Shown here: positions 4,169-24,004 of the stretch, in pieces
How the letters are laid out: each line of letters starts with the position of its first letter
Numbering within the stretch: the stretch's first letter is position 1
Source: a plasmid
DNA: 27,292 bases
Direction: 5' to 3' (one strand)
Sequence record: NZ_CP084927.1
Made by a program: the position numbers and the translations under genes
The notes under the pieces: generated by a model
Seen by the model: the letters and a program-made list of their open reading frames with translations, nothing else
Told to the model about the DNA's origin: nothing
The model's database searches: none

Positions 4169-4347
4169 TTTATCCCTCCTAACTTGGGAATTTGAAACGA
4201 GTTGAAAACGAGTTTCTTCTTGTCTTGAGTAGCATTTAAATTGCCAAAAGCTCTAGCTAATTCATTTGCTTGTGTAACTAAATAGGTTTGTCTATCTAAT
4301 AAGTTCTCTAATGCGTTTTTTGCTTTTTTATTTTCGACCATACTCAT
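4165..4347 (-). CDS. 60-aa hypothetical protein translationally coupled (ATGA overlap) to lnu(A).
   Basis: Good SD (tgaggtg, 6 nt from ATG). Its stop overlaps the lnu(A) start. No recognisable family. Confidence 0.45.
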   Translation of the reverse strand: MSMVENKKAKNALENLLDRQTYLVTQANELARAFGNLNATQDKKKLVFNSFQIPKLGGIK

Positions 4348-4365
4348 AAAAACACCTCAAATTTC

Positions 4366-4481
4366 AATACGTACTTTTTTATATAGTATATAATAACATA
4401 AAATATACCAATAACAATATTTATAAAAATAATATATAGTTAACGTACTTTTTTATATAGTTAACGTACTTTTTTATATTT
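4366..4481. repeat. Three copies of a 21-bp motif ttaacgtacttttttatatag, two of them in tandem, upstream of the 60-aa/lnu(A) operon.
   Basis: Direct inspection. An inverted copy lies at 7620-7645. Candidate operator or iteron. Confidence 0.5.
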
Positions 4482-4499
4482 TAAAGTGCATTAAACGTT

Positions 4500-4647
4500 G
4501 ATATAAAGGCATTTCTTTTCCTCTAATGTAATATAATGTATTACAATGTATTCTATAAATGTATCTTATTAAAGGCTGAATAAAATAAAAATTTCAAAAA
4601 AAGAAAAAAACACACTAAATAAATTCTTAAAATATTTTCTATTGTTT
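4500..4647 (-). pseudogene. Degenerate copy of the promoter and first ~20 codons of the Rep_trans gene (copy P3).
   Basis: The reverse complement of 4500-4560 aligns with atgtatacattctattacattaggga..., the 5' end of ORF 21075-22169. No downstream ORF. Confidence 0.5.
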
Positions 4648-4744
4648 AGCTAGACTAAAATTGCAGTTCTAGCAAATTGTGGTTCAGAAAGACACTGGGT
4701 CGCTCCGCTTATGCTATAACTCTAGTTAATCTACAACCATGCAA
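4648..4744 (+). repeat. Repeat B, copy 1 (~95 bp, contains an internal inverted repeat agttctagcaaa/tttgctagaact).
   Basis: Near-identical copies at 22266-22359 (direct) and 7363-7454 (inverted). Confidence 0.8.
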
Positions 4745-4762
4745 ATATAGACAAAACATGCT

Positions 4763-4838
4763 ATAATCATAGTGAAAAGATCAAAGTTACAAACAAAAAG
4801 CCCCCTAGATATTTGCGGTATCTAGGGGGTTATTTTGT
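4763..4838 (+). ncRNA. Candidate RNA II-like antitoxin sRNA of a par(pAD1)-type locus.
   Basis: Extended -10 tgctataat at 4754-4762. It runs into the bidirectional terminator at 4797-4838. It contains the direct repeat gatcaaagttacaaaca, whose second copy (4978-4994) overlaps the toxin start. Confidence 0.4.
4797..4838. terminator. Bidirectional intrinsic terminator shared by the convergent toxin mRNA and antitoxin RNA.
   Basis: Stem ccccctagata/tatctaggggg, with an A-run 5' and a T-run 3'. Confidence 0.6.
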
Positions 4839-4913
4839 TATTTCAGTCGCTGCCATTACTTAATCTAACAATAATGAGTCACAAACTGTTTTCAGGCTAA
4901 TTGTCTAACAAAG

Positions 4914-4997
4914 TTATCTATCTAGCCATTTGCAAATGTAATAGGCTATCACACCTGCTACGATAGATAAAAGAAAATTGATCAAAGTTGCAAACAT
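4914..4997 (-). CDS. Fst/Ldr-family type I toxin, 27 aa: MFATLINFLLSIVAGVIAYYICKWLDR.
   Basis: Single transmembrane segment followed by a WL(D/R) tail, typical of Fst-like toxins. SD aaggggg. Promoter with extended -10 tgctataat on the minus strand at 5063-5071. Confidence 0.55.
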   Translation of the reverse strand: MFATLINFLLSIVAGVIAYYICKWLDR

Positions 4998-5095
4998 TAA
5001 ATCGCCCCCTTTATTGTTGCAAGGACGATTTAGGCAGCAATTAACCGCCTTATTAGCTCAGACAACCTAAAAATTATAGCATAAGTGCTGACAAA

Positions 5096-5335
5096 TACAT
5101 TCTAAGCAAGCGTTCAAGTTGAATTTGGGTTATTATTCATGAAATCAACCGAGAAAACACCTTAGAAACCTTGATTTAATAGCTTTTTTAGCTGATTTAT
5201 GCTATAATTACTCCTGTAGTGATTAATGATCTACTTTGAAATCACTACATCATAACCACGTAAAAAAGATAGAGCCGATTATATTAATCGGCTCTATTTG
5301 CTATCTAAAATCAATTATAAGACATTTTAAATCAT
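5096..5335 (+). repeat. Repeat A, copy 1 (~240 bp). Contains a hairpin terminator (agagccgatta...taatcggctct) and an extended -10 promoter-like tgctataat.
   Basis: Inverted copy at 6700-6952. Partial direct copy at 22727-22830. A short piece (aaaccttgatttaataagctttttttt) lies next to the theta origin at 9398-9428. Confidence 0.75.
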
Positions 5336-6699: not shown

Positions 6700-6952
6700 T
6701 TTAAAATGCCTTAAAATTGATTTTAGATAGCAAATAGAGCCGATTAAATTAATCGACTCTATCTTTTTTTACGTGGTTATGATGTAGTAATTTCAGAGTA
6801 GATCATTAATTACTACAAGTTTAATTGTACCATAAATCAGCTAGAAAAGCTATTAAATCAGGGTTTCTAAGGCGTGATCTTTACTAATTTAATGAGTTAC
6901 TGCCTTATTTGGACTTGAAGTCATGCTTAGAATGCGTCTGACAGCACGAAAA
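6700..6952 (-). repeat. Repeat A, copy 2 (inverted).
   Basis: Aligns with the reverse complement of 5096-5335. It shares gtcagacgcattctaagca...caagt and gccttagaaaccYtgatttaatagctttt with copy 3. Confidence 0.75.
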
Positions 6953-7137
6953 AAGGCGGTATCCAAACCGCCCAAGCTAACACCGATGTTCAATAACTAG
7001 AGTGACTAATTCTAGTCTTCTGTGTTCAGCGCTATTTATACTCATTACACACTTATTATAACATTTTTTTTGTTATAATGCTATTTGTGTTCAGCAAGGT
7101 TTGACTAACCTTAGCGACACGAAAGGAGGAATCCTCC

Positions 7138-7281
7138 GTGAAGTTCGTTATTATACTCATTATCGTGCCTAACAAGCACGTAAAACGTTTTGCTAAGCTA
7201 GTAGCTCTCGCAGTTATTAGAACTGGTAAAATTGCAATTAAAAAGGCTATTGAACGCTTGGTTAGTTGGCTTAATGATTAA
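7138..7281 (+). CDS. 47-aa small cationic membrane peptide (VKFVIILIIVPNKHVKRFAKLVALAVIRTGKIAIKKAIERLVSWLND) with a GTG start. Candidate type I toxin.
   Basis: The SD ggagg lies inside a perfect hairpin ggaggaatcctcc. A paralog lies at 22443-22541 with a conserved N-terminus KIFVVIFLVPNKHVK. An intrinsic terminator follows at 7317-7352. Confidence 0.4.
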   Translation: MKFVIILIIVPNKHVKRFAKLVALAVIRTGKIAIKKAIERLVSWLND

Positions 7282-7362
7282 GTTCTGATAGTTGGTTACC
7301 AACGGAAGATAGTCATTTCAGCGGTTCTCTTTGAGAGTCGCTGTTTTTTTTGCTTTAAATAG

Positions 7363-7454
7363 CATGGTTGTAGATTATCTTGAGTTTTAGCATAAGCGGA
7401 GCGACCCAATGTCTTGCTGAACCACAATTTGCTAGAACTGCAAGTTTAGTCTAG
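7363..7454 (-). repeat. Repeat B, copy 2 (inverted).
   Basis: The reverse complement aligns with B1 and B3. Confidence 0.8.
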
Positions 7455-7620
7455 TTAAAAAATAGAGAAATTATTTTAGTAATTAAGTTGATGAGCTTTA
7501 TAAGTTTTTTTATTTTATTTTATTTTTTTATTTGCATGCGCCTTAAAAAGATACATTTATATGTATACATTCTATTACATTAGGGAGGAAAGAAATACCT
7601 TTATATCAACGTTTATAGCA
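7455..7620 (+). pseudogene. Second degenerate copy of the Rep_trans promoter and 5' end (copy P2). It reads MYTFYYIREERNTFISTFIAL then stops.
   Basis: 7561 atgtatacattctattacattagggagg... equals the first 11 codons of the 22169 ORF, then diverges to a stop. Confidence 0.55.
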
Positions 7621-7867
7621 CTTTAAAATATAAAAAAGTACGTTAACTATATATTGTTATCTATTATATACCTTTTTATATATTTTATGTTATTATAGAC
7701 TATATAAAAAACTACGTATTAAAATTTGAGGTGTTTTTATGGGAGTAATGAATAGTCAGTTCTATCTAGAAATATAACTGTTAGTTCAAATATTGATTTC
7801 ATAAAAATACCCCTATCTTTAATTTGATAGGAGTATTATCACATATTTTTAATGGCAAAGGTAGTTT

Positions 7868-9162: not shown

Positions 9163-9391
9163 TTGTCTGTAGTTTGCAAAAGTTGTCTGTAGTTTATGTA
9201 TTATTGTTATATACGCTAATTTATCTTACATTCAATATAATACCACACAATACTACAGACATATATAACTAATTTGTCTGTAGTTTGCAAAAGTTGTCTG
9301 TAGTAACTGCAAAAGTTGTCTGTAGTAACTGCAAAAGTTGTCTGTAGTAACTGCAAAAGTTGTCTGTAGTAACTGCAAAAGTTGTCTGTAG
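9163..9391. repeat. Replication origin iterons. The 22-bp repeat ttgtctgtagtaactgcaaaag occurs ~5.5 times in tandem, plus two degenerate pairs further 3' (toward repB).
   Basis: Perfect tandem 22-mers at 9283-9391 and degenerate copies at 9163-9206 and 9264-9300. An A+T-rich stretch with (aaagata)n lies at 9430-9500. Confidence 0.85.
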
Positions 9392-9765
9392 TTCAGTCCT
9401 AAAAACCTTGATTTAATAAGCTTTTTTTTCGCCTAAAAGAAAAAGATAAAAAGATATAAAAGAAAAAGATAAAGAATAGACAAAAATACAGACAATATTT
9501 ACATACATAATGGCTAGTACTCAGATGCACTACTAGCCATTAAATATAGTTTCAGCTAGCTATTTCAAATAAACTCGTTATTAAATACAGTTTTAACTCG
9601 TTGTTTAATAAATCAATATATTGTAATATCAGTACTTTTAATAAATGCAGGTACAATATTTATTTAGACTTTTTATTTACTAGTTTCTTTAGAAAAAGGA
9701 CTATTATAATATTGGTTGACACGATATAATTTACTCGAAATATACTTTGAAAGCACGTGATTATT

Positions 9766-13971: not shown

Positions 13972-14527
13972 TTTCCACTTGCTTTACTATCCTTTGAATA
14001 GTGGATTTTGAAATTTCAAATGCCTTAGCAGTTTCTGTATATGAGTGGCCAGAAGTCTTATACTCATATATCATTCTATATTTCGGTGTTATAACCCGTT
14101 TAGGACGTCCTTCACGATAATTTTTATTATGCAATTTAGCGTATTTCTTGCCTTCCTGGGTTCTCGTAACAATCATATCACGCTCAAATTCTGCGAAGGC
14201 TAGGACTACATTGCGCATCAATTTACCACCGGCAGAATCATCTAAACGTCCCATATTAAGAACGTTGACTGTTATATCACGTTTGAAACATTCATCCAGG
14301 AATTTAGTTGTTTCGCTTGTTTTGCGTCCGAGACGATCTAACCTAGTTACAATTAATTCATCTCCTGGTAACAGTCGTTTCTTTAATTTTTGAAATTCAG
14401 GTCGTTTATTAGTTCGACCAGTAAATTTTTCATAGTAGATTTTTTCAGCACCTGCACGCCTCAATTTTTCGATTTGTTCATCAAGACTTTGTTGAGGAGT
14501 TGAAACTCGAGCATAACCAAAAATCAT
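13958..14527 (-). CDS. res: Serine recombinase (resolvase/invertase family).
   Basis: 189 aa. Catalytic-Ser N-terminus (GYARVSTPQQSLDEQ) and C-terminal HTH, the architecture of small serine resolvases. Confidence 0.9.
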   Translation of the reverse strand: MIFGYARVSTPQQSLDEQIEKLRRAGAEKIYYEKFTGRTNKRPEFQKLKKRLLPGDELIVTRLDRLGRKTSETTKFLDECFKRDITVNVLNMGRLDDSAGGKLMRNVVLAFAEFERDMIVTRTQEGKKYAKLHNKNYREGRPKRVITPKYRMIYEYKTSGHSYTETAKAFEISKSTIQRIVKQVESEEQ

Positions 14528-14951: not shown

Positions 14952-16016
14952 TTGGAAAAACCTTTTTTATTGGATCTGACATCAACTGAAGAAAATTTAA
15001 AAAATGATATAAAGGACATTGACTATAGAAAAAATAGAGTCAATATATTAGGAATTAATTCGTTAAATAAATATAGATTAAATAAGAAGATATTGATTTT
15101 TACAAGAATTGATGATCCTGAAATTGACTATTTGGGTAAGTTTCTTTTAGAAGCTGGAATTGACTATTTAAGAATAAACGCGGAAAGTATATTCACGGAA
15201 TTCTCGTATTCTATTGAAGTTAATGACAAATTAACAGGAAAAATAAATTGTAATAGCACATGCTGGAACATAGAAGATATAGATGCGGTATGGTTTAGAC
15301 ATTTCTCATTAGATACTATACCTAAATCAAATAGTAATGTTGATAATATGTATGTAAGAGAACAATGGGGGATATTTTTTGCATTATTAAGCAATTTAGA
15401 TATCAGAATAATTTCAGGATTTGAAGCTGAGAAACAGTTTATTAAGCCGTTACAAATAAAATTAGCAAAAGATGTAGGATTTGAAGTTCCTAATACTCTT
15501 ATTACTAATAATAAAGATGAAGTAAAGAAGTATTTTGGAGATATTTCTGTTTTTGCTAAAGTTTTGATGCATCATAATATAGAATATAAACCAAATGTTT
15601 TGAAGCATGTTTATGGCAGGATAATTAATACAGATGATTATCCAAAAGAAACATTTAAGATAGCACCAACTATTTTTCAAAATTTGATAGAGAATGGAAA
15701 AGAAATAAGAGTAACTTTTTTTGGAAAGTACATATTTGGAACAGAATATAAGAACGTAGAACATACTGATTGGCATGATCAAGGTATATATGGGTTCAAT
15801 ATGAAAGAATACATTATTCCATCTAAATTGAAGAAAAAGCTAGAAAGATTTATTGACAAATCTGGATTATATGTTGGAACAATTGATTTGATATTAGTAG
15901 ATAATAATTGCTATTTTTTAGAAGTAAATGTTAATGGCGATTGGAGATGGCTAGAGGTTCAAACTAAACAAAAAATATCGCAAAAGTGCATTGATTTCTT
16001 GAAGGAGGTTGTTTGA
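14952..16016 (+). CDS. ATP-grasp family peptide ligase (graspetide-ligase-like or RimK-like).
   Basis: 354 aa with TTG start and SD gggggg. The C-terminal IDLILVDNNCYFLEVNVNGDWRWLE is the ATP-grasp ExN Mg/ATP motif. Its size and N-terminus resemble microviridin-type ligases. It overlaps the next gene by 8 nt. Confidence 0.75.
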   Translation: MEKPFLLDLTSTEENLKNDIKDIDYRKNRVNILGINSLNKYRLNKKILIFTRIDDPEIDYLGKFLLEAGIDYLRINAESIFTEFSYSIEVNDKLTGKINCNSTCWNIEDIDAVWFRHFSLDTIPKSNSNVDNMYVREQWGIFFALLSNLDIRIISGFEAEKQFIKPLQIKLAKDVGFEVPNTLITNNKDEVKKYFGDISVFAKVLMHHNIEYKPNVLKHVYGRIINTDDYPKETFKIAPTIFQNLIENGKEIRVTFFGKYIFGTEYKNVEHTDWHDQGIYGFNMKEYIIPSKLKKKLERFIDKSGLYVGTIDLILVDNNCYFLEVNVNGDWRWLEVQTKQKISQKCIDFLKEVV

Positions 16017-17121
16017 AATAAAAAAGTTATCTATGAACCTTGATATGGTTATTTATAATCAGTCTGGAAATATTATTTTAGATTTATATAAAGAACATCG
16101 ACAGTTATCAATAAATACAAAATATTTACCGATATTGTTCTTCTTTTCAGAAGCAAATTATGAAGAAGAATTATATTATCAAGATTTTCCAGATTTTGAT
16201 AATATAACTTTAGAAAATATAGTTGCTGAGTTTATAACTAAGAAAGTTTTAGTATATGTTAATGAATCAGAAGAAAAAAATAATACTTTGGGTATTGATA
16301 CCTTGAATAAATCCATAAATTATTATTATTGGGCAAATAAAGTTTTCACTGAAGAAAAATATAACTCAACATATGATGAATTCATGACTTTAATGGATAA
16401 GAGGAAATCTCAACCTAATATATATAAAGAATATCCAGGAGAAAAATATGATCTTCCTTTCCCACAGGAAATTAAAGAAGATTTAATGACAACAATGCTA
16501 AAGAGAGAATCTATAAGATATGTGGATCCACAAAAAAAGATAAATCTGCAAGATTTATCAAATATACTATATTATTCTAATGGTGAAACAGCTTATGCGT
16601 TAGATAGTGGTATAGGGTCTGCTATATTTAAAACTTTAGCAACACCAGGCGGAAGAGCTGCTAGTGAGTTATATTTTGTAAATTTTTCTTTATCAGAAAT
16701 TCCATTAGGTATTTACCATTATTCGATAAAGTCTCATAATTTAGAATTAATAAAAAAAGGTAACTATAGAGATGATTTTTTTAACATTTGTGGAGGTCAA
16801 ATACAGTTAAATTTAGCAAATGGATTATTAGTTGCTACTGAGAGAATTGATAGAATTATATGGAAATATCAAGATGCTTCTGCATATAGATCTGCTTTGA
16901 TTGAAACTGGAGAGTTGGCACAGAATATATATTTAACTGCTACTGCTTTGAAAGTAGCGACAGGTATAATTGGAACTTTCAGAGATAATATGCTTGAAAG
17001 TTTGTTAGATATAGATCCTGCTTTAGAATTTGGAACAGCTATTTTTACATTAGGTAAAAAAGAAGGTTTAACACGTTTTAATCGGCCTACTTTGGAAGAA
17101 TATAGAGAAGGTGAAAAATGA
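16009..17121 (+). CDS. SagB-type (McbC-like) FMN-dependent dehydrogenase, nitroreductase fold, with a ~150-aa N-terminal extension.
   Basis: Matches to the SagB/ThcOx signatures: RESIRYV (RRSxRxF-like), ATPGGRAASELYFV (PSAGG..ELY), and GIYHYSIKSHNLELI (YxYdp..h.L). Nitroreductase-like C-terminus. Confidence 0.8.
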   Translation: MFEIKKLSMNLDMVIYNQSGNIILDLYKEHRQLSINTKYLPILFFFSEANYEEELYYQDFPDFDNITLENIVAEFITKKVLVYVNESEEKNNTLGIDTLNKSINYYYWANKVFTEEKYNSTYDEFMTLMDKRKSQPNIYKEYPGEKYDLPFPQEIKEDLMTTMLKRESIRYVDPQKKINLQDLSNILYYSNGETAYALDSGIGSAIFKTLATPGGRAASELYFVNFSLSEIPLGIYHYSIKSHNLELIKKGNYRDDFFNICGGQIQLNLANGLLVATERIDRIIWKYQDASAYRSALIETGELAQNIYLTATALKVATGIIGTFRDNMLESLLDIDPALEFGTAIFTLGKKEGLTRFNRPTLEEYREGEK

Positions 17122-17396
17122 ATAATTTAGAAAGTAAAATTAAAGATAATGAACGTTTTATTTTGATTATTGTAAATAACACATTTTCTAGTAAGTATAT
17201 AATTTATAAAATTAATTCTTTAGATACAATAAATACACCTTATGAAATAGTAAATTTTAATGATGTTATATATTTTGCTAAGTTCATCAGTTTGATAGCT
17301 ATTCCTGCTATAATTATTTTTCATAATGGGAAAATTGAACATATTCATAGAGGTATCTGTTCTTTAAAGGAATTAGAGGATTTAATGCAAGGATAA
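17118..17396 (+). CDS. 92-aa thioredoxin-fold-like protein lacking a CxxC motif.
   Basis: A beta-alpha-beta pattern with cis-Pro-like IPAIIIFHNGK resembles the thioredoxin C-terminal half. There is no cysteine where CxxC would be. ATGA overlap with the upstream gene. Confidence 0.45.
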   Translation: MNNLESKIKDNERFILIIVNNTFSSKYIIYKINSLDTINTPYEIVNFNDVIYFAKFISLIAIPAIIIFHNGKIEHIHRGICSLKELEDLMQG

Positions 17397-17400
17397 AGAG

Positions 17401-18627
17401 GTGAGAAGATTGAGAAAGGATATTACTCAATTATTAAAAGCTAGTACAACAACGCTTATAAACGCAATGGGTGCAACTATTTTTGTATATTCACTCTCAT
17501 TAAAACTACTAGAAACTACCGGATCTGCATTAGGTTACGGGGTAAATATTTTTATAGGTCCAATTGTAGGTTTGATCTGCTCTCCATTAATAGGTAAAGT
17601 TATCGATAAATATTCAAAAAAAAATATTGCTATTTTATCTGAATGTAGTTTGGTAATTATTTTAATTTTATTTGCAGTAGCTTTCCCATATATACAGAAA
17701 AATTTATTTATTTATTCAATTATCTTTGTATGTCTAGATAATATTTGTGCTAGATTTTTTACAATATCATATTTATCGTCTGCACCAGATATAGTTAGTA
17801 AAGATCAGTTACAACGATTAAATGCCATTCAAACTACTGGAGTTGCAGTAGCTAATATGCTCGCTCTACCGATAGCAGGTTTTATATATGGAATACTGCC
17901 ATTTGAGTATATAATAATTATAGAAATATTTGCTGAAGTACTAACAATACTTTTAACAATAATAACTGAATTTAAAGCAGAAAAGAAATTAGTGAAGGCT
18001 AAAGCTCATAATAATGTTGGTGGATTGAAGATTCTATTTAAGTATAAAAAAGTTTTAGAACTAGTAATAATTGCAATGATTTTGAATTTTTCAATAACTT
18101 CAATTGAGATTGGTATTCCATATACAATTATCCATGTTTTGAAAAAGACATCAGTTGTAAGTGGGAATATTCAAAGTTTATTCTCCATGGGTGTAATTGT
18201 AGGAGGAATATTAATTTCTGCTATTAAATTAAAAAATGTATTGGCCTTCACTCAAAGAATATATACATTATTTACGTGGCTTCTACTAGCTTTTGGAATC
18301 TCATTATATGTATTTACAAAATATACTTTAATAATTTTCATCATATTTGAATTATTACTAGGTATCTTAACAGCAATTGCTGATCCACCATTATTTACAT
18401 ACATTCAAGAAGAAATTCCAAAAGACTATCTAGGAAGAATTAATACTTTTATATATACAATAGTCCAATTACTAACACCAATAGGAGTAGCCGTATATAG
18501 TACGTGTTTTTCTTTTACTAACTATGCTAATGTATATCTCATTAGTGGTGTAATTATCGTAATTTCAATCTCTATAATTAAATATATCCTTGGTAAACGA
18601 TTAATTAATGATTCATCAAGCATATAA
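17401..18627 (+). CDS. MFS transporter with 12 predicted transmembrane segments. Probable exporter or self-immunity pump of the operon.
   Basis: 408 aa, uniformly hydrophobic in 12 segments. MFS motif-like GKVIDKYSKKN after TM2. 4 nt after the previous gene. Confidence 0.8.
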   Translation: MRRLRKDITQLLKASTTTLINAMGATIFVYSLSLKLLETTGSALGYGVNIFIGPIVGLICSPLIGKVIDKYSKKNIAILSECSLVIILILFAVAFPYIQKNLFIYSIIFVCLDNICARFFTISYLSSAPDIVSKDQLQRLNAIQTTGVAVANMLALPIAGFIYGILPFEYIIIIEIFAEVLTILLTIITEFKAEKKLVKAKAHNNVGGLKILFKYKKVLELVIIAMILNFSITSIEIGIPYTIIHVLKKTSVVSGNIQSLFSMGVIVGGILISAIKLKNVLAFTQRIYTLFTWLLLAFGISLYVFTKYTLIIFIIFELLLGILTAIADPPLFTYIQEEIPKDYLGRINTFIYTIVQLLTPIGVAVYSTCFSFTNYANVYLISGVIIVISISIIKYILGKRLINDSSSI

Positions 18628-18701: not shown

Positions 18702-19199
18702 TTAAAAATTCCATTCCCAAAAAGCATTGCCATTCGCTACAATAAACATTTCTAACCATTTTAGAAAAGTACATTTAAAACACTTATCCATTTCCATGCC
18801 TGGGTAAGTTAAATAATCTTTTTTTTGCTTATAGTGTTTAATATTGATACACATTTCACCATAATCGCGGAAAAGTAGTATAGGAATTAAGTCTTTATCT
18901 ATTGATTCTTGATATCTGTTTAGGATTTCCTGTCCAGAATAAATTTTACAAACAGGTCCGCCTAATTCCATACCTTGGAACTCATCTTCGAATAAATTCA
19001 ATCCATTAGTACAACTTAGTAATTCAATTACTTCATCCGGTAAATTAAGCTTAATAAGTTTATTTGCTACATCATTAGGAATTTTATCAAAAAAAGTTAT
19101 TTTAAAATTAAATACTCCACCAAAATTAGTAACAGGGTATTTCTTATTTCCATTATCTGATATTTCTTTCAACATCGAAATAATACTTTCAGCAGTCAT
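18702..19199 (-). CDS. SUKH-1 (SMI1/KNR4) family immunity protein.
   Basis: 165 aa. LPDEVIELLSCTNGLNLFEDEF matches the SUKH-1 LPxdYkeFL..NGg motif. The middle (IPIL..DYGEMCI) and C-terminus (FLKWLE) are also SUKH-like. Its start overlaps the toxin stop and SD. Confidence 0.65.
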   Translation of the reverse strand: MTAESIISMLKEISDNGNKKYPVTNFGGVFNFKITFFDKIPNDVANKLIKLNLPDEVIELLSCTNGLNLFEDEFQGMELGGPVCKIYSGQEILNRYQESIDKDLIPILLFRDYGEMCINIKHYKQKKDYLTYPGMEMDKCFKCTFLKWLEMFIVANGNAFWEWNF

Positions 19200-19207
19200 A
19201 TGTCCTC

Positions 19208-20107
19208 CTAGTAATTTCTAAACCATGTAGTTATTAATTTGTGTGGGTTAACAGTTATAGACATTAAATTATTAAAATCATTCGTTCCACCATAAATCCT
19301 AGGACGAATATGATGAACTTGATGTTCTAACCAATATTCTTTAGATTGGTTTCCATATGTTTCACTAAATTTCTTTATGAAGTCATGTCTATCTTGAGTA
19401 GACCAATCAGGAGACGCTGGTAATTTAGACCATGTTGTGTTAATGGGGGTTTCAGCATCTTTTTTTGATATTGGATCTACATATTCAGGAAAATTCTGTC
19501 CAATTTTATTTTGTAAATAAATTGAACTCATGCTAATAGGTTTAACTGAAGTTTGCCCATCATAACCTAATAATCCCCATGAACCAGTCACAGCAAAAAA
19601 GGTTGTTTTAGCAGGAAAGTCTGCATATCCAAGTAACCCAGTAGTTATATTCCCTTCCTTGGTTATTACTTTAGATGTTTGAACTGATACAGGGCCCGAT
19701 AATGTTGGCTCTGATAGAAAATTAATTTGTGCAGTAACAGCAGCAGGAGCTTCTCCAACAATAGAATCTATCCAAAAATTAATTCTAAAATTTCCATCAA
19801 CATATTCTTCTGAAGTGTGATATTTTACAGTAGTAGTAGGAACTTCAGCAAATGATACTATTCTGTTAAAAGATGATTGACTATTATTTTGAGAGTAAAT
19901 ACTACCACTATTTAAGTCAGAAATATTATCATTTATATTGTTGTCTTTATATAAATTAGTAGTAATATTTTTATCAATAACTTTATTACTTGCAGATATA
20001 TTATTATTCAGATCATTAACATTATCAGCGTAAGTAATAGAATTATTAAAATAATTAATGCTTACAATAGAAAATACTATTAATAATATTTTCTTCAACC
20101 TATTCAT
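19208..20107 (-). CDS. Sec-secreted toxin with a C-terminal HNH (colicin E9/pyocin-type) DNase domain.
   Basis: Signal peptide MNRLKKILLIVFSIVSINYFNNSITYA|DN. Asn/Ser-rich linker. C-terminus EHQVHHIRPRIYGGTNDFNNLMSITVNPHK aligns with the colicin E9 H-N-H motif HHxxPxxxGGxxxxxNxxxxxxxxH. SD aaggag. Confidence 0.65.
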   Translation of the reverse strand: MNRLKKILLIVFSIVSINYFNNSITYADNVNDLNNNISASNKVIDKNITTNLYKDNNINDNISDLNSGSIYSQNNSQSSFNRIVSFAEVPTTTVKYHTSEEYVDGNFRINFWIDSIVGEAPAAVTAQINFLSEPTLSGPVSVQTSKVITKEGNITTGLLGYADFPAKTTFFAVTGSWGLLGYDGQTSVKPISMSSIYLQNKIGQNFPEYVDPISKKDAETPINTTWSKLPASPDWSTQDRHDFIKKFSETYGNQSKEYWLEHQVHHIRPRIYGGTNDFNNLMSITVNPHKLITTWFRNY

Positions 20108-20205
20108 TTAAAACATCTCCTTATAATGTTGAAACTACTTACACTATAAAGCTATTTCTAAGAAAATCAAGGGTGCTTTTTATAAACTACTAAAATACTA
20201 TAAAA

Positions 20206-20303
20206 AGGCAATGCATCTGCGTTCAGTCGTTGTCTCGTGCTCGTGGTTCCACAGGGTTCCACGTCCCTGTGCGCGAGCCAACTCCCTCACTTGATGCATT
20301 GCC
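20206..20303. repeat. 13-bp perfect inverted repeat (aaggcaatgcatc/gatgcattgcctt) enclosing a 72-bp GC-rich insert. The whole structure is followed, on the minus strand, by a U-run.
   Basis: Direct inspection. GC content is far above the local average. Internal hairpin cacaggg..ccctgtg. Confidence 0.45.
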
Positions 20304-20329
20304 TTTAATTCGTGGTGTAACTCTGGTCT

Positions 20330-21082
20330 TTATGCCACCTGCAGCTTCTGTCCAACTCTCAAAGTCGTATCATACGTTAATCTGTTGATTTTAAGCAGTT
20401 CTTCAATGCTCAACCCATGCTGATATGCCACCAGCCACAGCGTATCGCCAGGTCGTACAACGTATGTATTACTCAAATCTAGCTGAATACCCTGATTACC
20501 TAAAATCTCAGTATAGTAGCCGAGAAAGTCATATGACATCTTAACTTCTAAACCATGCCAATCATTTGTAAAACGCCATGTTCCAACGCCGTCAATACCT
20601 GAATTACAAGCATAATATTTAATTGCCCATAGGTTGCCATAATCGCATTTATCAAAGTTAGTCAGCAGGTTTTCAGTTCTGAATTGTAACCCAGTTCTCT
20701 TATATCCGAACTCTTTTATTACACTTCGAAATGCTCTGATATTCTCTATCGTATCATCATCTACTCTCATACTAGATACATCTAACACTAGAGCAGTCTC
20801 ATCATTTAACTTAGTACTATGTAGATATTCGCCAAAGTGCCACGCTTCTTTTATAGCTTCATCTTTAGACCTGAAATCTGCCTTATGCTTAAAATGATAT
20901 AGCATATTAGCGTGCTGACAGGCGTGTTTTAACTCGAGTTCATGCAGGTTTACCCAGCTAACACCATGAGTAAGCTCAATAACGCAAGCTCTCACGCCTT
21001 TAGCTGCCAGAAATTCAATCTCTTTGGCAGTGAATCTATCTTCTTTCCCTATCTCTGCTAATAGGTTGTAACATCTAACCAT
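20330..21082 (-). CDS. GH25-family muramidase with a C-terminal LysM domain.
   Basis: GH25-like GVRACVIELTHGVSWVN, YHFKH and LVLDVS motifs. C-terminal LysM (YVVRPGDTLWLVAYQHGLSIEELLKINRL...GQKLQV). 8-nt overlap with the upstream gene. Confidence 0.75.
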   Translation of the reverse strand: MVRCYNLLAEIGKEDRFTAKEIEFLAAKGVRACVIELTHGVSWVNLHELELKHACQHANMLYHFKHKADFRSKDEAIKEAWHFGEYLHSTKLNDETALVLDVSSMRVDDDTIENIRAFRSVIKEFGYKRTGLQFRTENLLTNFDKCDYGNLWAIKYYACNSGIDGVGTWRFTNDWHGLEVKMSYDFLGYYTEILGNQGIQLDLSNTYVVRPGDTLWLVAYQHGLSIEELLKINRLTYDTTLRVGQKLQVA

Positions 21083-22136
21083 TCTCGTCCCCCTTACGTT
21101 TACTTTGTTTCTTTTCTCTCTCTTGTTGATATTGGAAAATGGCTTGCTGGTGTTTATTTTTCAAGCGTGTATTGCCATTTGAAATCAGCTTATACAGCCA
21201 GTTAATCTCTCCGTCTAATGCAGTTACAACAGTTGCTAAAGTAGGTCCTATCTGCTTATCAAGCCATGTAATCATTTCATCAACTGTTTTATCTTGCTTT
21301 TTAATCGTTAGTTTTAATGGCTCCACATTTTCGAGTAATCTTTCCCACCATTTCGCCGTTTTCCACCTAGATTTATTACTATCTTTAGAGTTTTTAGGAC
21401 GTTGTACAAAGCGTATATACTGTTGTAACGTCCTTCTAATCACTAGCCCTACATTGCTACACTCAATCATATGTAATGCCAGCATCTTAGCCCTTTCCTT
21501 GCGATAAACAATTTCCAACCTTGTCCATTTTTCCGGAATTTCCTTATCTTCATTTTTTGCCTTGCGTTTTTGCTCCAGTGCCTTATCGTAAATACGGCAG
21601 AAAATATCAGACGTTTGAGAACCAAAATACATTGTCTGTCCTAGTAATTTACCGTCCCCAGTACTTCTACTGTTTAGCTCGTCCCATTTGTTCCAGCGTG
21701 ACGTAAATTCAGACTTTAATGCAGCTCTCCTGATGCGACTAAATTTAATAAGATCGTCCTTAAAGTCATCAATGGCCAAGTCTATACGACTGAGTTTAGC
21801 TTGCTTTTCCAAAGCTACAAGCACATTAATCAATGTATACAGTGATTTCTGACTTTCATACGCTCTGCATCCAGTCCCTGACAATATCACATGTACACCC
21901 ATATGAGTAATGCAAGGCTCATCATCAACTTGGTTAAACAATACAAACAGGTTTCCATTACCCCACTTGGTCTGCGCATTGTAGCCAAATTTTCCTTTAC
22001 TTAGGTCTGCGAAATCTTCTATTTTTAGTTGTAAAATCTTTTCAATAACATCTTCATAACTCAACTGAAAAATCGTAAATTCTAGCCAGTCAATTGATGT
22101 CTGTAATGTCTGCTTAATCGTTGATGTAACAGGCAT
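21075..22136 (-). CDS. Rep_trans-family protein, either a rolling-circle replication initiator or a MOB_T-type relaxase, ~353 aa.
   Basis: Size, composition and TRLEIVYRKERA-type region are consistent with the Rep_trans superfamily. The start is set at the second ATG (MPVTSTIKQ), because the remnant copy at 7598-7606 preserves a GGGAGG SD in front of it. The ORF-track start is 22169. Confidence 0.6.
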   Translation of the reverse strand: MPVTSTIKQTLQTSIDWLEFTIFQLSYEDVIEKILQLKIEDFADLSKGKFGYNAQTKWGNGNLFVLFNQVDDEPCITHMGVHVILSGTGCRAYESQKSLYTLINVLVALEKQAKLSRIDLAIDDFKDDLIKFSRIRRAALKSEFTSRWNKWDELNSRSTGDGKLLGQTMYFGSQTSDIFCRIYDKALEQKRKAKNEDKEIPEKWTRLEIVYRKERAKMLALHMIECSNVGLVIRRTLQQYIRFVQRPKNSKDSNKSRWKTAKWWERLLENVEPLKLTIKKQDKTVDEMITWLDKQIGPTLATVVTALDGEINWLYKLISNGNTRLKNKHQQAIFQYQQEREKKQSKRKGDENG

Positions 22137-22265
22137 CTCTTTTTCCCTAATGTAATAGAATGTATACATATAAATGTATCTTTTTAAGGCGTGCGCAAAT
22201 AAAAAAATAAAAAAAACTTATAAAGCTCATCAACTTAATTACTAAAATAATTTCTCTATTTTTTA

Positions 22266-22359
22266 ACTAGATTAAAATTGCAGTTCTAGCAAATTGTGGT
22301 TCAGCAAGATATTGGGTCGCTACGCTTTTGCTAGAACTCTAGTTAATCTACAACCATGC
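22266..22359 (+). repeat. Repeat B, copy 3, upstream of the intact Rep_trans gene.
   Basis: Carries a perfect 12-bp IR agttctagcaaa/tttgctagaact separated by ~36 bp. Candidate dso/oriT or operator. Confidence 0.8.
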
Positions 22360-22370
22360 AATTTAAAGCA

Positions 22371-22405
22371 TAAAAAAAACAGCGACTCTCAAAAGAGAAC
22401 CGCTG
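22371..22405 (-). terminator. Intrinsic terminator for the minus-strand small-peptide gene.
   Basis: cagcggttctcttttgagagtcgctg followed by tttttttt (minus strand). The paralog at 7317-7352 is on the plus strand. Confidence 0.6.
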
Positions 22406-22442
22406 AAATAACCATCTCCTGCCGGTAACTAGCTTTCAGAAA

Positions 22443-22541
22443 TTAATCTTCTAACCAATTAAGCAGACATTTAATAGCCTTTTTAATTAACTTTTTAACG
22501 TGCTTATTAGGCACGAGGAAAATAACTACAAAGATTTTCAA
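22443..22541 (-). CDS. 32-aa small cationic membrane peptide (MKIFVVIFLVPNKHVKKLIKKAIKCLLNWLED) with a TTG start. Paralog of 7138-7281.
   Basis: SD aggagg inside the hairpin ggaggtatcctc. Conserved at protein level with the copy at 7138. Confidence 0.4.
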   Translation of the reverse strand: MKIFVVIFLVPNKHVKKLIKKAIKCLLNWLED

Positions 22542-22726
22542 AAGAGGATACCTCCTCTCTGTGCGTCTTAAGGTTACCAGCCTTAGCATTGCACATAAAT
22601 AATTCTAACATACCAGTTATTGTGTTATAATTAGTCTTAGGAAAATAATTACACATTGTACAAAGAGTCTAACCAACTCAGAAGTAGTACGACGTCGTTA
22701 ATTGGGAGCGGGATAAAAACCGCTCT

Positions 22727-22830
22727 TTTTTGTTTGTCAGACGCATTCTAAGCAAGCGTTCAAGTTGAATCTGGATAATAAACCATTAAAACCGTTGTAA
22801 ACACGCCTTAGAAACCTTGATTTAATAGCT
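22727..22830 (+). repeat. Repeat A, copy 3 (partial).
   Basis: gtcagacgcattctaagcaagcgttcaagttgaat...gccttagaaaccttgatttaatagctttt. Confidence 0.75.
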
Positions 22831-22916
22831 TTTATTTTATAAGAATGGTTTCTTTTGTTATAATACAAGCGGTTACAATATAACATTTAATAGTCGCTTT
22901 AGAAAGGAGTAAGAAA

Positions 22917-23432
22917 ATGAAAGTAAGTACAAAATTCGTTAGTTTTGTTGTTGCATTTTTAGCGTTTATTTGTGTATCTTTTGCCACTACTTCGGTAAAA
23001 GCTGATACCTATTCAACTAATAAAGAAGTAGTAGTTAATACGCTTTTAGATAATGGATATACTTACAATCAAGCAATAACTATTGCTTCTAGTATGGATA
23101 TCTCATCTACTGAAACTTTAGTTGGCGTAGATATCTTACCAAGAACTGAACGTTCAGTTGCATATACATCCTCTCAAATCCTGTCAAAAAGTGATGTCCG
23201 TCAGATTTTTAATAATATCAATAATGTTAATCTTGCTAGTTCTATACTTGGAGGTATTATCGGTGCGAAAAATCCTATTTTAGGTACCGTTATTGGTTTA
23301 GGTGGATTCCAAAATCCTAATTTTAAAAATGCTATAACTCAAGCATATTATCAAGGTAAAAGAGTAAAAATCGTTTATAAATCAGGTGCTTCCATGTCTT
23401 TGAATACTGTGTCCTATTACGTTATAAACTAA
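22917..23432 (+). CDS. Secreted 171-aa protein with a glycine-rich hydrophobic segment. Unknown function.
   Basis: Signal peptide with cleavage around VKA|DTY. Motif ILGGIIGAKNPILGTVIGLGG. Strong SD aaggag. Confidence 0.55.
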   Translation: MKVSTKFVSFVVAFLAFICVSFATTSVKADTYSTNKEVVVNTLLDNGYTYNQAITIASSMDISSTETLVGVDILPRTERSVAYTSSQILSKSDVRQIFNNINNVNLASSILGGIIGAKNPILGTVIGLGGFQNPNFKNAITQAYYQGKRVKIVYKSGASMSLNTVSYYVIN

Positions 23433-23447
23433 AGAGAAGATAACTCT

Positions 23448-23612
23448 ATGAAATACTTTTGGATTAAAACTTTTTTTGGTTTTTTGGTAGTTGTTGCACT
23501 TTCTGTTAATTACTATCTCCAATCAGGACACACTTGGATTTTTGCTCTTGCAGTAATAATAGAATTGGTAGAAATTCCTTTATTATACTACTATGAAAAG
23601 AAAAAACATTAG
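23448..23612 (+). CDS. 54-aa two-transmembrane small membrane protein immediately downstream of the secreted protein.
   Basis: MKYFWIKTFFGFLVVVALSVNYYLQSGHTWIFALAVIIELVEIPLLYYYEKKKH. It is followed by a strong terminator at 23618-23662. Confidence 0.4.
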   Translation: MKYFWIKTFFGFLVVVALSVNYYLQSGHTWIFALAVIIELVEIPLLYYYEKKKH

Positions 23613-23741: not shown

Positions 23742-23917
23742 TTAAGTGACTATTTAAAAGGAGTTAATAAATATGCGGCAAGGTATTCTTAAATAAACTG
23801 TCAATTTGATAGCGGGAAAAAATAATTAGATGTCCTTTTTTAGGAGGGCTTAGTTTTTTGTACCCAGTTTAAGAATACCTTTATCATGTGATTCTAAAGT
23901 ATCCAGAGAATATCTGT

Positions 23918-24004
23918 ATGCTTTGTATACCTATGGTTATGCATAAAAATCCCAGTGATAAAAGTATTTATCACTGGGATTTTTATGCCCTTTTGGGTTT
24001 TTGA
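23918..24004 (+). CDS. tet(M) leader peptide (Tn916 orf12, MLCIPMVMHKNPSDKSIYHWDFYALLGF) with an embedded attenuator hairpin.
   Basis: 28 codons. Terminator-like aaaatcccagtgata...tatcactgggattttt at 23946-23990 lies inside the leader. This is the classic transcriptional attenuation arrangement. Confidence 0.75.
   Translation: MLCIPMVMHKNPSDKSIYHWDFYALLGF

What the first reader, a model, noticed from the sequence alone, without database searches (positions are those of the whole stretch)
20330..22370. Rep_trans-family gene coupled to a GH25-LysM muramidase, with its upstream IR-containing region present in three copies
Seen directly: a ~353-aa Rep_trans-like protein is translationally overlapped with a GH25+LysM cell-wall hydrolase. 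Upstream of it, repeat B carries a perfect 12-bp IR 36 bp apart (agttctagcaaa ... tttgctagaact).

From established knowledge: the Rep_trans superfamily includes pT181-type RCR initiators, phage replication initiators, and the MOB_T relaxases of Tn916 (Orf20) and ICEBs1 (NicK). Lytic transglycosylases and muramidases accompany conjugative transfer, and they also occur as phage endolysins.

Inference: this is either a second (rolling-circle) replicon fused into the theta plasmid, a MOB_T mobilisation module whose oriT is repeat B, or a phage/satellite remnant. The three B copies would then be three potential nick sites on one molecule. That is unusual and potentially destabilising.
Basis: partly seen in the sequence, partly recalled or inferred. 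Interest (0 to 1): 0.55.

Follow-up and report, generated by a model that had tools for sequence, protein, structure and literature searches.

The report
Origin-less remnant of a rolling-circle replicon
The Rep_trans gene and its LysM partner are the surviving half of a rolling-circle replication module common on Lactobacillaceae plasmids, and here it has lost its nick site, so the three upstream repeats are recombination scars rather than three origins.

Summary
A 353-aa Rol_Rep_N+Rep_trans protein (21075-22136, minus strand) overlaps a GH25-like+LysM gene (20330-21082) by 8 nt. Its upstream region occurs three times.

In 20+ Lactobacillaceae relatives this gene pair is the 3' end of a conserved module: DUF1659, DUF2922, (YvrJ), tyrosine recombinase, short SSB, a G/C hairpin with CT'AATAG in its loop, Rep_trans, then GH25-like/LysM. 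In four complete 7.5-15 kb Lactobacillus plasmids, Rep_trans is the only recognisable replication initiator. The module is therefore most simply a rolling-circle replicon of the pT181/pSTK1 kind.

In this window, and in three complete L. salivarius plasmids, everything upstream of about codon 12 of rep has been replaced. The recombinase, the SSB and the nick hairpin are gone. In their place is a plasmid-backbone segment holding a small-peptide gene, a terminator, a 110-nt IR core and an AT-rich leader.

Repeat copies A and B keep only about 25 nt of rep and then run into Rep3-type iterons. The 12-bp IR has no nick consensus and is imperfect in A and B.

Rep keeps its catalytic Tyr. The GH25-like domain has lost its catalytic Glu.

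This is an uncharacterised variant of a known kind, and the copy here is truncated. Interest is modest.

The parts
21075..22136 (-). Rep_trans-family initiator gene (353 aa; Rol_Rep_N + Rep_trans). Catalytic Tyr183 lies in RIYDKALE. D16, D119/D123 and E208 are present.
   Evidence: Pfam. Best solved structure is RepSTK1, 4cij, E 9e-31. The profile aligns RIYDK to RIYNK of RepDE. Invariant columns of the family alignment. 32% identity to RepSTK1.
20330..21082 (-). GH25-like + LysM gene (250 aa), overlapping the rep stop by 8 nt. The DxE motif reads LDVSS (Glu to Ser) and the N-terminal DVS motif is lost.
   Evidence: Pfam. PHROG endolysin families. Alignment with 11 homologues, of which only L009, L014 and L016 keep ADVSSHQ and VDVE. 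dN/dS is 0.06-0.13.
20204..20306 (-). Operon terminator: a 14-bp stem (AAAGGCAATGCATC / GATGCATTGCCTTT) followed by a T run. In this plasmid its loop carries a GC-rich insertion of about 70 nt.
   Evidence: Fold z-score -4.2. Relatives L071, L073 and L074 have the plain hairpin without the insert. The insert occurs in only 3 plasmids.
22137..22244 (-). AT-rich leader with a weak SD (AGGGAAAAAGAG) in front of rep. It replaces the canonical nick hairpin and strong SD of relatives.
   Evidence: Comparison with pIBB3154_2. Similarity to the canonical module stops at the rep ATG. No convincing promoter was found.
22245..22365 (-). The 110-120-nt core, the best conserved part of all three copies. 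It contains the 12-bp IR (22327-22338 / 22282-22293) nested in an outer 9-bp IR. The right half, GAACCACAATTTGCTAGAACTGCAA, is invariant in 9 copies.
   Evidence: Alignments. Fold results are weak: z -1.5 on the sense strand and -2.2 on the antisense strand. The core is restricted to 11 L. salivarius plasmids.
22380..22405 (-). Intrinsic terminator of the small-peptide gene (11-bp stem followed by T8). It insulates rep from upstream transcription.
   Evidence: Terminator scan. Conserved in all variants.
22443..22541 (-). Small ORF of 32 aa, (M)KIFVVIFLVPNKHVKKLIKKAIKCLLNWLED, behind an SD-sequestering hairpin (AGAGGAGGTATCCTCT). Possibly a type I toxin-like membrane peptide.
   Evidence: Three sequence variants keep the frame, including a 45-nt in-frame indel, and keep the SD hairpin through different sequences. 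Annotated as WP_157664651 in other plasmids. No Pfam hit.
22499..22515 (-). Mini-hairpin cgtgcCTAATAAgcacg inside the small ORF. This is the only nick-like motif near rep and is a weak candidate only.
   Evidence: Only 3 such hairpins occur in the window, against 0.03 in shuffles. Two of them are copies B and C. It is confounded with the codons VPNKHV.
22719..22833 (-). Distal conserved block of the repeat (AAAGCTATTAAATCAAGGTTTCTAAGG...CTTGCTTAGAATG). A hairpin/terminator on the other strand lies at 22704-22727.
4491..5187 (-). Copy A, without rep. It holds the distal block, a different small ORF (4914-4997, MFATLINFLLSIVAGVIAYYICKWLDR) with its terminator, the core (4635-4756), the leader and about 25 nt of rep. 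It then runs into 21-bp iterons and a truncated Rep3-like N-terminus (4165-4347) fused to lnu(A).
6845..7620 (+). Copy B, without rep and inverted. It holds the distal block, a 47-aa small ORF (7138-7281) with mini-hairpin 7164-7180, a terminator, the core (7348-7469), the leader and a mutated rep start. The same iteron/Rep3 stub follows (7620-7741), just downstream of repB.
   Evidence: The same arrangement lies next to repB in other L. salivarius plasmids.

Best explanation
Shown: the rep/GH25-like-LysM pair is the 3' half of a conserved plasmid module. Its order is DUF1659, DUF2922, (YvrJ), Xer-like tyrosine recombinase, ~108-aa SSB, G/C hairpin with ACT'AATAG in its loop, Rep_trans, GH25-like/LysM.

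Inferred: this module works as a pT181/pSTK1-type rolling-circle replicon. The Rep dimer would nick CT'AA in the extruded hairpin through Tyr183 and prime leading-strand synthesis. The SSB would coat the displaced strand. The recombinase would resolve multimers.

Shown: in this window a recombination event with its breakpoint about 36 nt inside rep replaced the recombinase, the SSB and the nick hairpin. The replacement is a L. salivarius plasmid-backbone segment made of a small-peptide gene, a terminator, the IR core and an AT-rich leader.

Inferred: the plasmid therefore replicates through its RepB theta replicon with the 22-bp iterons at 9264-9395. Rep_trans is an intact orphan, probably still expressed, with no cognate cis site. 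At most it could act in trans on a co-resident plasmid that carries the hairpin.

Shown: copies A and B are rep-less scars of the same junction, joined to Rep3-type iterons.

Inferred: the three copies are recombination substrates and leader sequence, not three origins.
For: Module conservation:
- The order recombinase, SSB, gap, Rep, GH25-like/LysM is found in L001-L017, L019-L021, L066, L071-L076 and L080-L084.

Nick hairpin:
- It is present 48-104 nt upstream of rep in every close relative with upstream sequence.
- It matches the published Rep_trans/MOB_T nic, CT'AA in the loop of a G/C hairpin (PMC9371924).
- It is absent from the window.
- Among L. salivarius plasmids in PLSDB, only pIBB3154_2 carries it. 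The complete plasmids pCTN1046, pBNS11-29kb and SNK-6 p2, which share the window's arrangement, do not.

Replicon role:
- Four complete plasmids (7.5, 10.5, 12.6 and 15.4 kb) have no other recognisable initiator.
- The small RCR plasmids pSTK1 and a 3.2-kb B. cereus plasmid carry relatives at 29-35% identity.
- The best solved structure is RepSTK1.

Breakpoint:
- Similarity to pIBB3154_2 stops at the rep ATG.
- The window has no recombinase or SSB homologue.
- The upstream block is 100% identical among four plasmids whose rep and lysM genes are only 81-93% identical, which indicates recombination.

Copies A and B:
- Both diverge from C about 25 nt into rep at a shared breakpoint and continue into iterons and a Rep3-like start.
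- The same core also lies directly upstream of iterons and a different replication initiator gene in NZ_CP097642.

Catalytic residues of Rep are intact.
Against: - Rep and the LysM protein are intact in all four dso-less plasmids.
- dN/dS is 0.02-0.08 for rep and 0.06-0.13 for lysM. That argues for retained function rather than decay. The mosaic identity pattern means this divergence may have accumulated in intact modules.
- A nick-like mini-hairpin (cgtgcCTAATAAgcacg) lies 363-379 nt upstream of rep on the same strand. It is rare against shuffles, so a non-canonical cis site is not excluded.
- The replicon role of the module rests on the absence of other recognisable initiators, not on experiment.
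- MOB-suite types two of these plasmids as MOBT-mobilizable.
- ICE relaxases are as close in sequence as RCR Reps.
- I could not prove that the window is the whole plasmid.
Confidence: 0.6

Rival explanations
1. Mobilisation module. Rep_trans would be a MOB_T-like relaxase and the hairpin an oriT. The module would let plasmids hitch a ride on Tn916/ICESt3-type conjugative elements. In this window the relaxase would act on a degenerate oriT in the repeat (the mini-hairpin at 22499-22515 and 7164-7180) or in trans on other plasmids.
For: - The NCBIfam MobT model aligns over nearly the whole protein (E 2e-33).
- Relatives at 26-33% identity sit next to TcpC, a VirB4-like ATPase and FtsK-like genes in Staphylococcus and Listeria elements.
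- MOB-suite types pRKC30SC2 and a L. johnsonii plasmid as MOBT.
- The nic motif is shared by RCR origins and MOB_T oriTs.
- Rep_trans proteins lacking an HTH have been shown to act as IME relaxases (PMC7563843).
- The mini-hairpin is rare against shuffles.
- L. salivarius hosts Tn916-like Tn6224 on a sister plasmid.
Against: - The MobT score is 115 against a cut-off of 600, and there is no N-terminal HTH.
- No coupling protein or T4SS gene lies in the window or in any close relative.
- In four complete plasmids Rep_trans is the only candidate replication initiator, so replication is the more economical role.
- The mini-hairpin has only a 5-bp stem, lies inside a conserved coding frame, and is missing from copy A.
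- The window already has its own MobV relaxase.
Confidence: 0.15
2. A working second rolling-circle replicon whose origin is the repeated IR core, giving three active nick sites.
For: - Rep is intact and appears to be under purifying selection.
- The core is highly conserved and lies about 110-230 nt upstream of rep.
- The perfect 12-bp IR could extrude as a cruciform.
Against: - The IR and its loop contain no CT'AA motif.
- The window's Rep is 94-96% identical in protein sequence to Reps that sit beside the canonical hairpin. The same DNA specificity is therefore expected.
- The IR decays on one side only in copies A and B.
- The core also precedes theta iterons without any Rep_trans gene.
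- Fold z-scores are weak.
Confidence: 0.05
3. Phage or satellite remnant. The recombinase, SSB, Rep and an endolysin-like GH25/LysM protein would derive from a temperate phage or phage satellite, with the plasmid copies being inert cargo.
For: - PHROG hits: replication initiation protein (phrog_453), endolysin (phrog_291), SSB (phrog_44) and integrase (phrog_1).
- By my reading of the sequences, the GH25-like proteins lack a signal peptide, as endolysins do.
- L009, L014 and L016 keep a catalytic GH25 domain.
Against: - No structural, packaging or holin genes occur in any of more than 20 loci.
- All the complete records examined are circular plasmids, several with ParA-type partition genes.
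- Gene order and the nick hairpin are conserved across genera, and both genes show low dN/dS.
Confidence: 0.07

Closest known systems
pT181-family / pSTK1-type rolling-circle replicons (RepC, RepD, RepSTK1)
   Same: - Rol_Rep_N + Rep_trans architecture.
- Catalytic Tyr in the R-x-Y-x-K motif.
- Conserved acidic residues.
- In relatives, a nick site CT'AATAG in the loop of a G/C hairpin.
- RepSTK1 is the best solved-structure match at 32% identity.
- pSTK1 itself is recovered at 29% identity.
   Different: - Host plasmids are 7-27 kb rather than 2-5 kb.
- The hairpin lies upstream of rep rather than inside it, which is where I recall the pT181 origin to lie.
- The module carries an SSB, a tyrosine recombinase, DUF1659/DUF2922/YvrJ genes and a translationally coupled GH25-like/LysM gene.
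- It often co-resides with Rep3, RepB or RepA_N theta replicons.
- In this window the dso is missing altogether.
MOB_T relaxases of ICEs and IMEs (ICEBs1 NicK, Tn916 Orf20, ICESt3 RelSt3, IME_oriT relaxases)
   Same: - Same superfamily and the same catalytic motifs.
- Same nic motif, positioned upstream of the gene.
- Sequence distance (26-33% identity) is similar to that of the RCR Reps.
- These enzymes are known to double as RCR initiators.
   Different: - No N-terminal HTH.
- Far below the NCBIfam MobT cut-off.
- No TcpA/FtsK coupling protein or T4SS nearby.
- Located on plasmids rather than on ICEs.
- Published statements restrict MobT relaxases to ICEs of the Tn916 superfamily.
Uncharacterised Lactobacillaceae plasmids carrying the full module (pIBB3154_2, pRKC30SC2, pLjDC22.2_1)
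   Same: - Rep is 94% identical in pIBB3154_2 and 47-50% identical in the Lactobacillus plasmids.
- Same rep/LysM coupling.
- Same operon terminator.
   Different: These plasmids keep the recombinase, the SSB and the hairpin. The window, pCTN1046, pBNS11-29kb and SNK-6 p2 have swapped them for the backbone repeat.
GH25 + LysM phage endolysins
   Same: - GH25 fold signature above the Pfam cut-off, with a C-terminal LysM domain.
- No signal peptide, by my reading of the sequences.
- PHROG endolysin hits.
   Different: - The catalytic Glu of DxE and the N-terminal Asp motif are lost in the window's protein and in most family members.
- The gene is coupled to a replication gene rather than to a holin.

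Membership tests
Rep_trans superfamily (PF02486) nicking-joining enzymes | PF02486 domain above the gathering score, together with the N-terminal Rol_Rep_N domain | tested here: met
   148.1 bits against 29.6 for Rep_trans, and 43.6 bits against 23.7 for Rol_Rep_N.
Rep_trans superfamily (PF02486) nicking-joining enzymes | Catalytic Tyr in motif III (Y-x-K-x-x-E) and three metal-binding acidic residues (motifs N', I and IV) | tested here: met
   Y183, K185 and E188 in RIYDKALE align to RFYEK of RepSTK1 and RIYNK of RepDE. D16, D119/D123 and E208 are invariant in 20 family members. Motif assignment follows PMC6499999.
pT181/pSTK1-type rolling-circle replicon | Cognate double-strand origin in cis: CT'AA in the loop of a G/C-rich hairpin | tested here: not met
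   Absent from the window. Present in all close relatives. Absent from the complete sister plasmids. Only a weak 5-bp-stem mimic exists at 22499-22515.
pT181/pSTK1-type rolling-circle replicon | Rep_trans protein is the plasmid's replication initiator | tested here: not met
   The window has a RepB/Rep3 gene with four 22-bp iterons. In four complete relatives, however, Rep_trans is the only candidate initiator. The family therefore meets this feature and the window copy does not.
pT181/pSTK1-type rolling-circle replicon | Single-strand origin and ssDNA replication intermediates | not testable with these tools
   No sso model is available. This needs a non-denaturing Southern blot.
MOB_T relaxase (NCBIfam MobT, NF041493) | Score above the curated cut-off and an N-terminal HTH domain | tested here: not met
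   115.6 bits against 600. The alignment starts at MobT position 57, and Pfam finds no HTH.
MOB_T relaxase (NCBIfam MobT, NF041493) | Genetic linkage to a TcpA/FtsK-type coupling protein and a T4SS, or to an integrated mobilizable element | tested here: not met
   None in the window or in the close-family loci and plasmids. Such linkage appears only in relatives at 26-33% identity.
MOB_T relaxase (NCBIfam MobT, NF041493) | Requirement of the protein and its nic site for conjugative transfer | not testable with these tools
   Needs mating assays.
GH25 muramidase | PF01183 domain above the gathering score | tested here: met
   32.6 bits against 27, covering residues 25-173 and lacking the first 14 profile positions.
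GH25 muramidase | Catalytic DxE motif and N-terminal Asp | tested here: not met
   The window reads LDVSS and AEIGKED where L009, L014 and L016 read VDVE and ADVSSHQ. Motif positions come from my own knowledge of GH25 enzymes such as Cpl-1.
LysM peptidoglycan-binding module | PF01476 domain | tested here: met
   48.2 bits against 20.9, residues 207-249. Matches solved LysM structures.

The most novel reading that the evidence does not exclude
The module would be a dual-purpose replicon and transfer origin. This would put Rep_trans/MOB_T-type DNA processing on plasmids, which published statements restrict to ICEs. In L. salivarius the orphan Rep would be kept because it acts in trans. Its targets would be canonical hairpins on co-resident plasmids, or the CTAATAA mini-hairpin embedded in a small-peptide gene that is conserved on many L. 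salivarius plasmids, megaplasmids included. One Rep would then give several replicons rolling-circle processing or ICE-dependent mobilisation. The catalytically dead GH25-like/LysM partner would have a non-lytic role tied to Rep.
Probability: 0.1. Interest if true: 0.65.

Novelty: new variant of a known kind. Interest (0 to 1): 0.35.

Why it matters
The gene pair belongs to a widespread but unstudied replication module of Lactobacillaceae plasmids. I found no functional description in the literature I could search, and typing tools handle it inconsistently. MOB-suite calls some carriers 'MOBT mobilizable', calls others 'non-mobilizable', and assigns the module no replicon type.

Recognising the module would improve replicon and mobility typing of plasmids in probiotic and food lactobacilli. 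These include multiresistance plasmids like this one, which carries tet(M), cat and lnu(A).

The module also offers a natural case for asking three questions:
- How do rolling-circle replicons scale to 7-15 kb, here with their own SSB and recombinase?
- What does a catalytically dead GH25/LysM protein do next to a Rep?
- How are redundant replicons disarmed after cointegration, here by losing the origin while keeping the initiator?

For this particular window the practical message is negative. There are not three nick sites.

Tried and rejected
- **Rfam.** An E-value scan of the whole window found nothing in 20100-22900. The only real hit is the tet(M) leader sRNA_0030.
- **Promoters.** The tool's scan and my own scan found no convincing promoter between the terminator at 22380 and rep. 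How rep is transcribed remains unresolved.
- **Core structure.** RNA folding of the core gave weak z-scores (-1.5 and -2.2). I could not support an antisense-RNA, attenuator or sso reading.
- **Small ORFs as toxins.** The small ORFs look like Fst-like type I toxins, but Pfam gave no hit. This stays a resemblance.
- **dN/dS as proof of function.** The low values are confounded by recombination. The upstream block is 100% identical while the genes are mosaic at 81-93%.
- **Mini-hairpin covariation.** Only three sequence variants exist, and the stem coincides with conserved codons. The test is inconclusive.
- **Mobile-element boundaries.** Pairwise BLAST of relatives showed related backbones and no clean ends. 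I dropped the 'inserted IME' idea.
- **Circularity.** Contig end overlaps showed none.
- **SSB as a leading-region marker.** The SSB lies upstream of the nick on the nicked strand and would be transferred last. The argument from PMC11541004 therefore does not favour an oriT.
- **Literature.** Searches for the module, pIBB3154_2, pCTN1046 and pRKC30SC2 found no functional description.
- **Third hairpin.** The CTAATA hairpin at 14400-14419 lies inside a serine-resolvase gene and is treated as chance.
Full report
**1. What is in the window**

The window is a mosaic multiresistance plasmid of Ligilactobacillus salivarius. The best DNA matches are L. salivarius plasmids pCTN1046, pBNS11-29kb and SNK-6 p2.

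It carries the following genes and elements:
- cat
- a MobV/Mob_Pre relaxase
- lnu(A)
- a RepB/Rep3 theta initiator at 7868-9076(-), with four 22-bp iterons at 9286-9395
- an IS200/IS605 pair
- a serine resolvase
- an HNH/SUKH toxin-immunity pair
- tet(M)

**2. The two genes**

ORF 21075-22136(-) encodes a 353-aa protein with Rol_Rep_N and Rep_trans domains. The start at 22136 is fixed by homologues.

Its best solved relative is RepSTK1 of the Geobacillus rolling-circle plasmid pSTK1. The match is E 9e-31 by sequence and 7.7e-46 by family profile, at 32% identity.

The motif RIYDKALE aligns with RFYEK of RepSTK1 and RIYNK of RepDE. This places the catalytic Tyr at Y183, with K185 and E188 spaced as in RelSt3 (Y252/K254/E257; PMC6499999). 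D16, D119/D123 and E208 are invariant in the family.

ORF 20330-21082(-) overlaps the rep stop by 8 nt. It has a LysM domain and a weak GH25 match. In an alignment of 12 family members, only L009, L014 and L016 keep the GH25 motifs ADVSSHQ and VDVE. The window protein reads AEIGKED and LDVSS, so the catalytic Glu is gone. Most other members have lost both motifs. I therefore describe it as GH25-like, probably not a muramidase.

**3. The family context**

Homologues at 43-57% identity all share the same domain architecture. Their contigs show a conserved order. A ~280-aa Xer-like tyrosine recombinase comes first. A 107-113-aa SSB follows, then a gap of about 220-320 bp, then Rep_trans, and usually the GH25-like/LysM gene. 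DUF1659, DUF2922 and often YvrJ genes lie further upstream.

The gap always contains a G/C hairpin with ACT'AATAG in its loop, 48-104 nt before rep on the same strand. In the plasmids L080-L084 and in pIBB3154_2 a conserved TAATAAATACA box follows it. This is the nic motif shared by pT181-type origins and MOB_T oriTs (PMC9371924).

L. salivarius pIBB3154_2 carries the full module with a Rep 94% identical to the window's. The closest protein cluster, P0001 at 96% identity, also sits in full modules.

**4. Replication or mobilisation?**

Four complete circular plasmids contain the module and no other recognisable initiator:
- pLjDC22.2_1 (7,470 bp)
- L. taiwanensis CLG01 unnamed2 (10,527 bp)
- pRKC30SC2 (12,568 bp)
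- L. johnsonii GHZ10a unnamed2 (15,424 bp)

For the first two plasmids this rests on three checks. The annotation was inspected. A tblastn search with Rep3 queries was negative. A Pfam scan of the remaining ORFs found nothing relevant. For the other two it rests on the annotation alone. Three of the four also carry ParA + DUF5388 partition genes.

At 29-35% identity one finds small plasmids where such a Rep is the sole gene of note, namely pSTK1 and a 3.2-kb B. cereus plasmid.

At 26-33% identity one also finds ICE-type relaxases next to TcpC, VirB4-like and FtsK-like genes.

The window protein is far below the MobT cut-off and has no HTH. No coupling protein or T4SS gene accompanies any close relative.

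I conclude that the module is most simply an autonomous rolling-circle replicon. A secondary relaxase role cannot be excluded. [quoted passage not shown] MOB-suite itself types two of these plasmids MOBT and the others non-mobilizable.

**5. What happened in this window**

Similarity to pIBB3154_2 ends at the rep start. The window has no recombinase or SSB homologue. It has no canonical hairpin, even when 3 mismatches are allowed.

The complete plasmids that share the window's arrangement are also missing from a PLSDB search with the hairpin region.

Upstream of rep lies a different segment. It is 100% identical among the window, pCTN1046, pBNS11-29kb and SNK-6 p2 down to about 22100. The rep and lysM genes of those same plasmids are only 81-93% identical and are mosaic. 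This marks a recombination junction about 36 nt inside rep.

**6. Anatomy of the repeated segment**

Read on the minus strand, copy C contains, in order:
- a distal conserved block (22719-22833)
- a small ORF (22443-22541) behind an SD-sequestering hairpin
- a strong terminator (22380-22405)
- a 110-120-nt core (22245-22365) holding the 12-bp IR
- an AT-rich leader with a weak SD
- rep

Copy B (6845-7620) has the same order with a 47-aa version of the ORF. Copy A (4491-5187) has a different small ORF and terminator between the same flanking blocks.

After about 25 nt of rep sequence, A and B share a breakpoint. They continue into 21-bp iterons (AAAAAGTACGTTAACTATATA) and the start of a Rep3-like gene. 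In A that gene is truncated by lnu(A). In B it is truncated immediately.

The same core also precedes the iterons of a different replication initiator gene in NZ_CP097642. It lies beside repB in other plasmids. It is confined to 11 L. salivarius plasmids.

The IR's left arm carries uncompensated changes in A and B. The structure is not markedly more stable than shuffled sequence. Nothing links the core to Rep_trans chemistry.

**7. Residual doubts**

A relaxed scan used stems of at least 5 bp with at least 4 G/C pairs, and loops of 7-18 nt containing CTAA[TC]A. It finds three hairpins in the window against 0.03 in shuffles. Two of them are cgtgcCTAAtAAgcacg in copy C and cgtgcCTAAcAAgcacg in copy B, on the rep strand and inside the small ORF. 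Staphylococcal relatives do use 7-nt loops.

The stem coincides with the conserved codons VPNKHV, and only three variants exist. I rate it a weak candidate.

Rep and the LysM protein are intact in all four origin-less plasmids and show low dN/dS. This may reflect retained function in trans. It may equally reflect allele exchange with intact modules.

**8. Verdict**

This is a second rolling-circle replicon of an uncharacterised Rep_trans subfamily, but it has lost its origin, SSB and recombinase. The three repeat copies are junction scars and leader sequence, not nick sites.

The kind of system is known. The accessory gene set is an undescribed variant: an SSB, a recombinase and a translationally coupled, mostly inactive GH25/LysM protein, on 7-15 kb hosts.

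Noticed in passing
window 4345-7741: A 3.4-kb imperfect palindrome with no ORF of 80 aa or more, formed by copies A and B and their flanks in inverted orientation (arms about 80% identical). Its centre, 5457-6371, is 98.7% identical to the non-coding region downstream of rep in the 2.9-kb Rep_1 (HUH) rolling-circle plasmid pBNS11-3kb-1. This may be that plasmid's sso region, captured here.
   Followed up: partly
window 22443-22541(-), 7138-7281(+), 4914-4997(-): Three small hydrophobic/basic peptide genes of 32, 47 and 27 aa. At least two (the 32-aa and 47-aa versions) have SD-sequestering hairpins, and each has its own terminator. They resemble type I toxins, and the 27-aa one looks Fst-like (…SIVAGVIAYYICKWLDR). 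No Pfam hit and no antitoxin RNA was identified. The 3' part of the 32-aa gene and its terminator are about 86% conserved on many badger-strain L. salivarius plasmids, megaplasmids included.
   Followed up: partly
window 20226-20294: A GC-rich insertion of about 70 nt (over 60% GC in a 30% GC plasmid) sits in the loop of the rep-lysM terminator hairpin. It is present only in the window, pCTN1046 and the linear plasmid pLMP1046. A 75%-identical copy lies elsewhere in pIBB3154_2. It could be a miniature mobile element or a structured RNA.
   Followed up: partly
window 4165-4490: A stub of a second theta replicon. It has two 21-bp iterons, an SD and a 60-aa Rep3-like N-terminus (53% identical to the Rep3 of L001), with its stop overlapping the lnu(A) start. 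lnu(A) appears to have been inserted into a rep gene.
   Followed up: partly
window 18702-20107(-): A secreted 299-aa protein with a C-terminal HNH nuclease motif, followed by a SUKH/SMI1-like protein. This looks like a polymorphic toxin-immunity pair directly downstream of the rep-lysM operon.
   Followed up: no
window 14952-18627(+): A four-gene cluster: an ATP-grasp protein (weak, sub-threshold MvdD-like hit), a nitroreductase-like protein, a 92-aa ORF and an MFS transporter. It could be a RiPP or peptide-modification and export cluster.
   Followed up: no
window 22917-23612(+): A 171-aa protein with a signal peptide and a 54-aa membrane protein, both with no family assignment. They always accompany the repeat in pCTN1046 and pBNS11-29kb. 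Possibly a bacteriocin/immunity-like pair.
   Followed up: no
window 23800-23964(+): Rfam sRNA_0030 (194 bits), the Tn916-type tet(M) leader, followed by a palindrome at 23941-23988. tet(M) therefore arrived with its Tn916 attenuator but without the Tn916 transfer genes.
   Followed up: no
L080-L084, L066, L071 (relatives): DUF1659, DUF2922 and often YvrJ small genes always precede the recombinase-SSB-Rep_trans module. ParA + DUF5388 partition genes are frequent on the same plasmids. MOB-suite typing of these plasmids is inconsistent (MOBT versus non-mobilizable), and no replicon type is given.
   Followed up: partly
Leuconostoc mesenteroides plasmids (H107-H117): About 37-kb Leuconostoc plasmids match 78 nt of the L. 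salivarius hairpin region at 74-75% identity, although they did not appear in the Rep protein search. The origin-like sequence may exist there without this Rep.
   Followed up: no
window 14400-14419(-): A third CTAATA-loop hairpin (ggtcgAACTAATAAAcgacc) lies inside the serine-resolvase gene. It is treated as chance.
   Followed up: no
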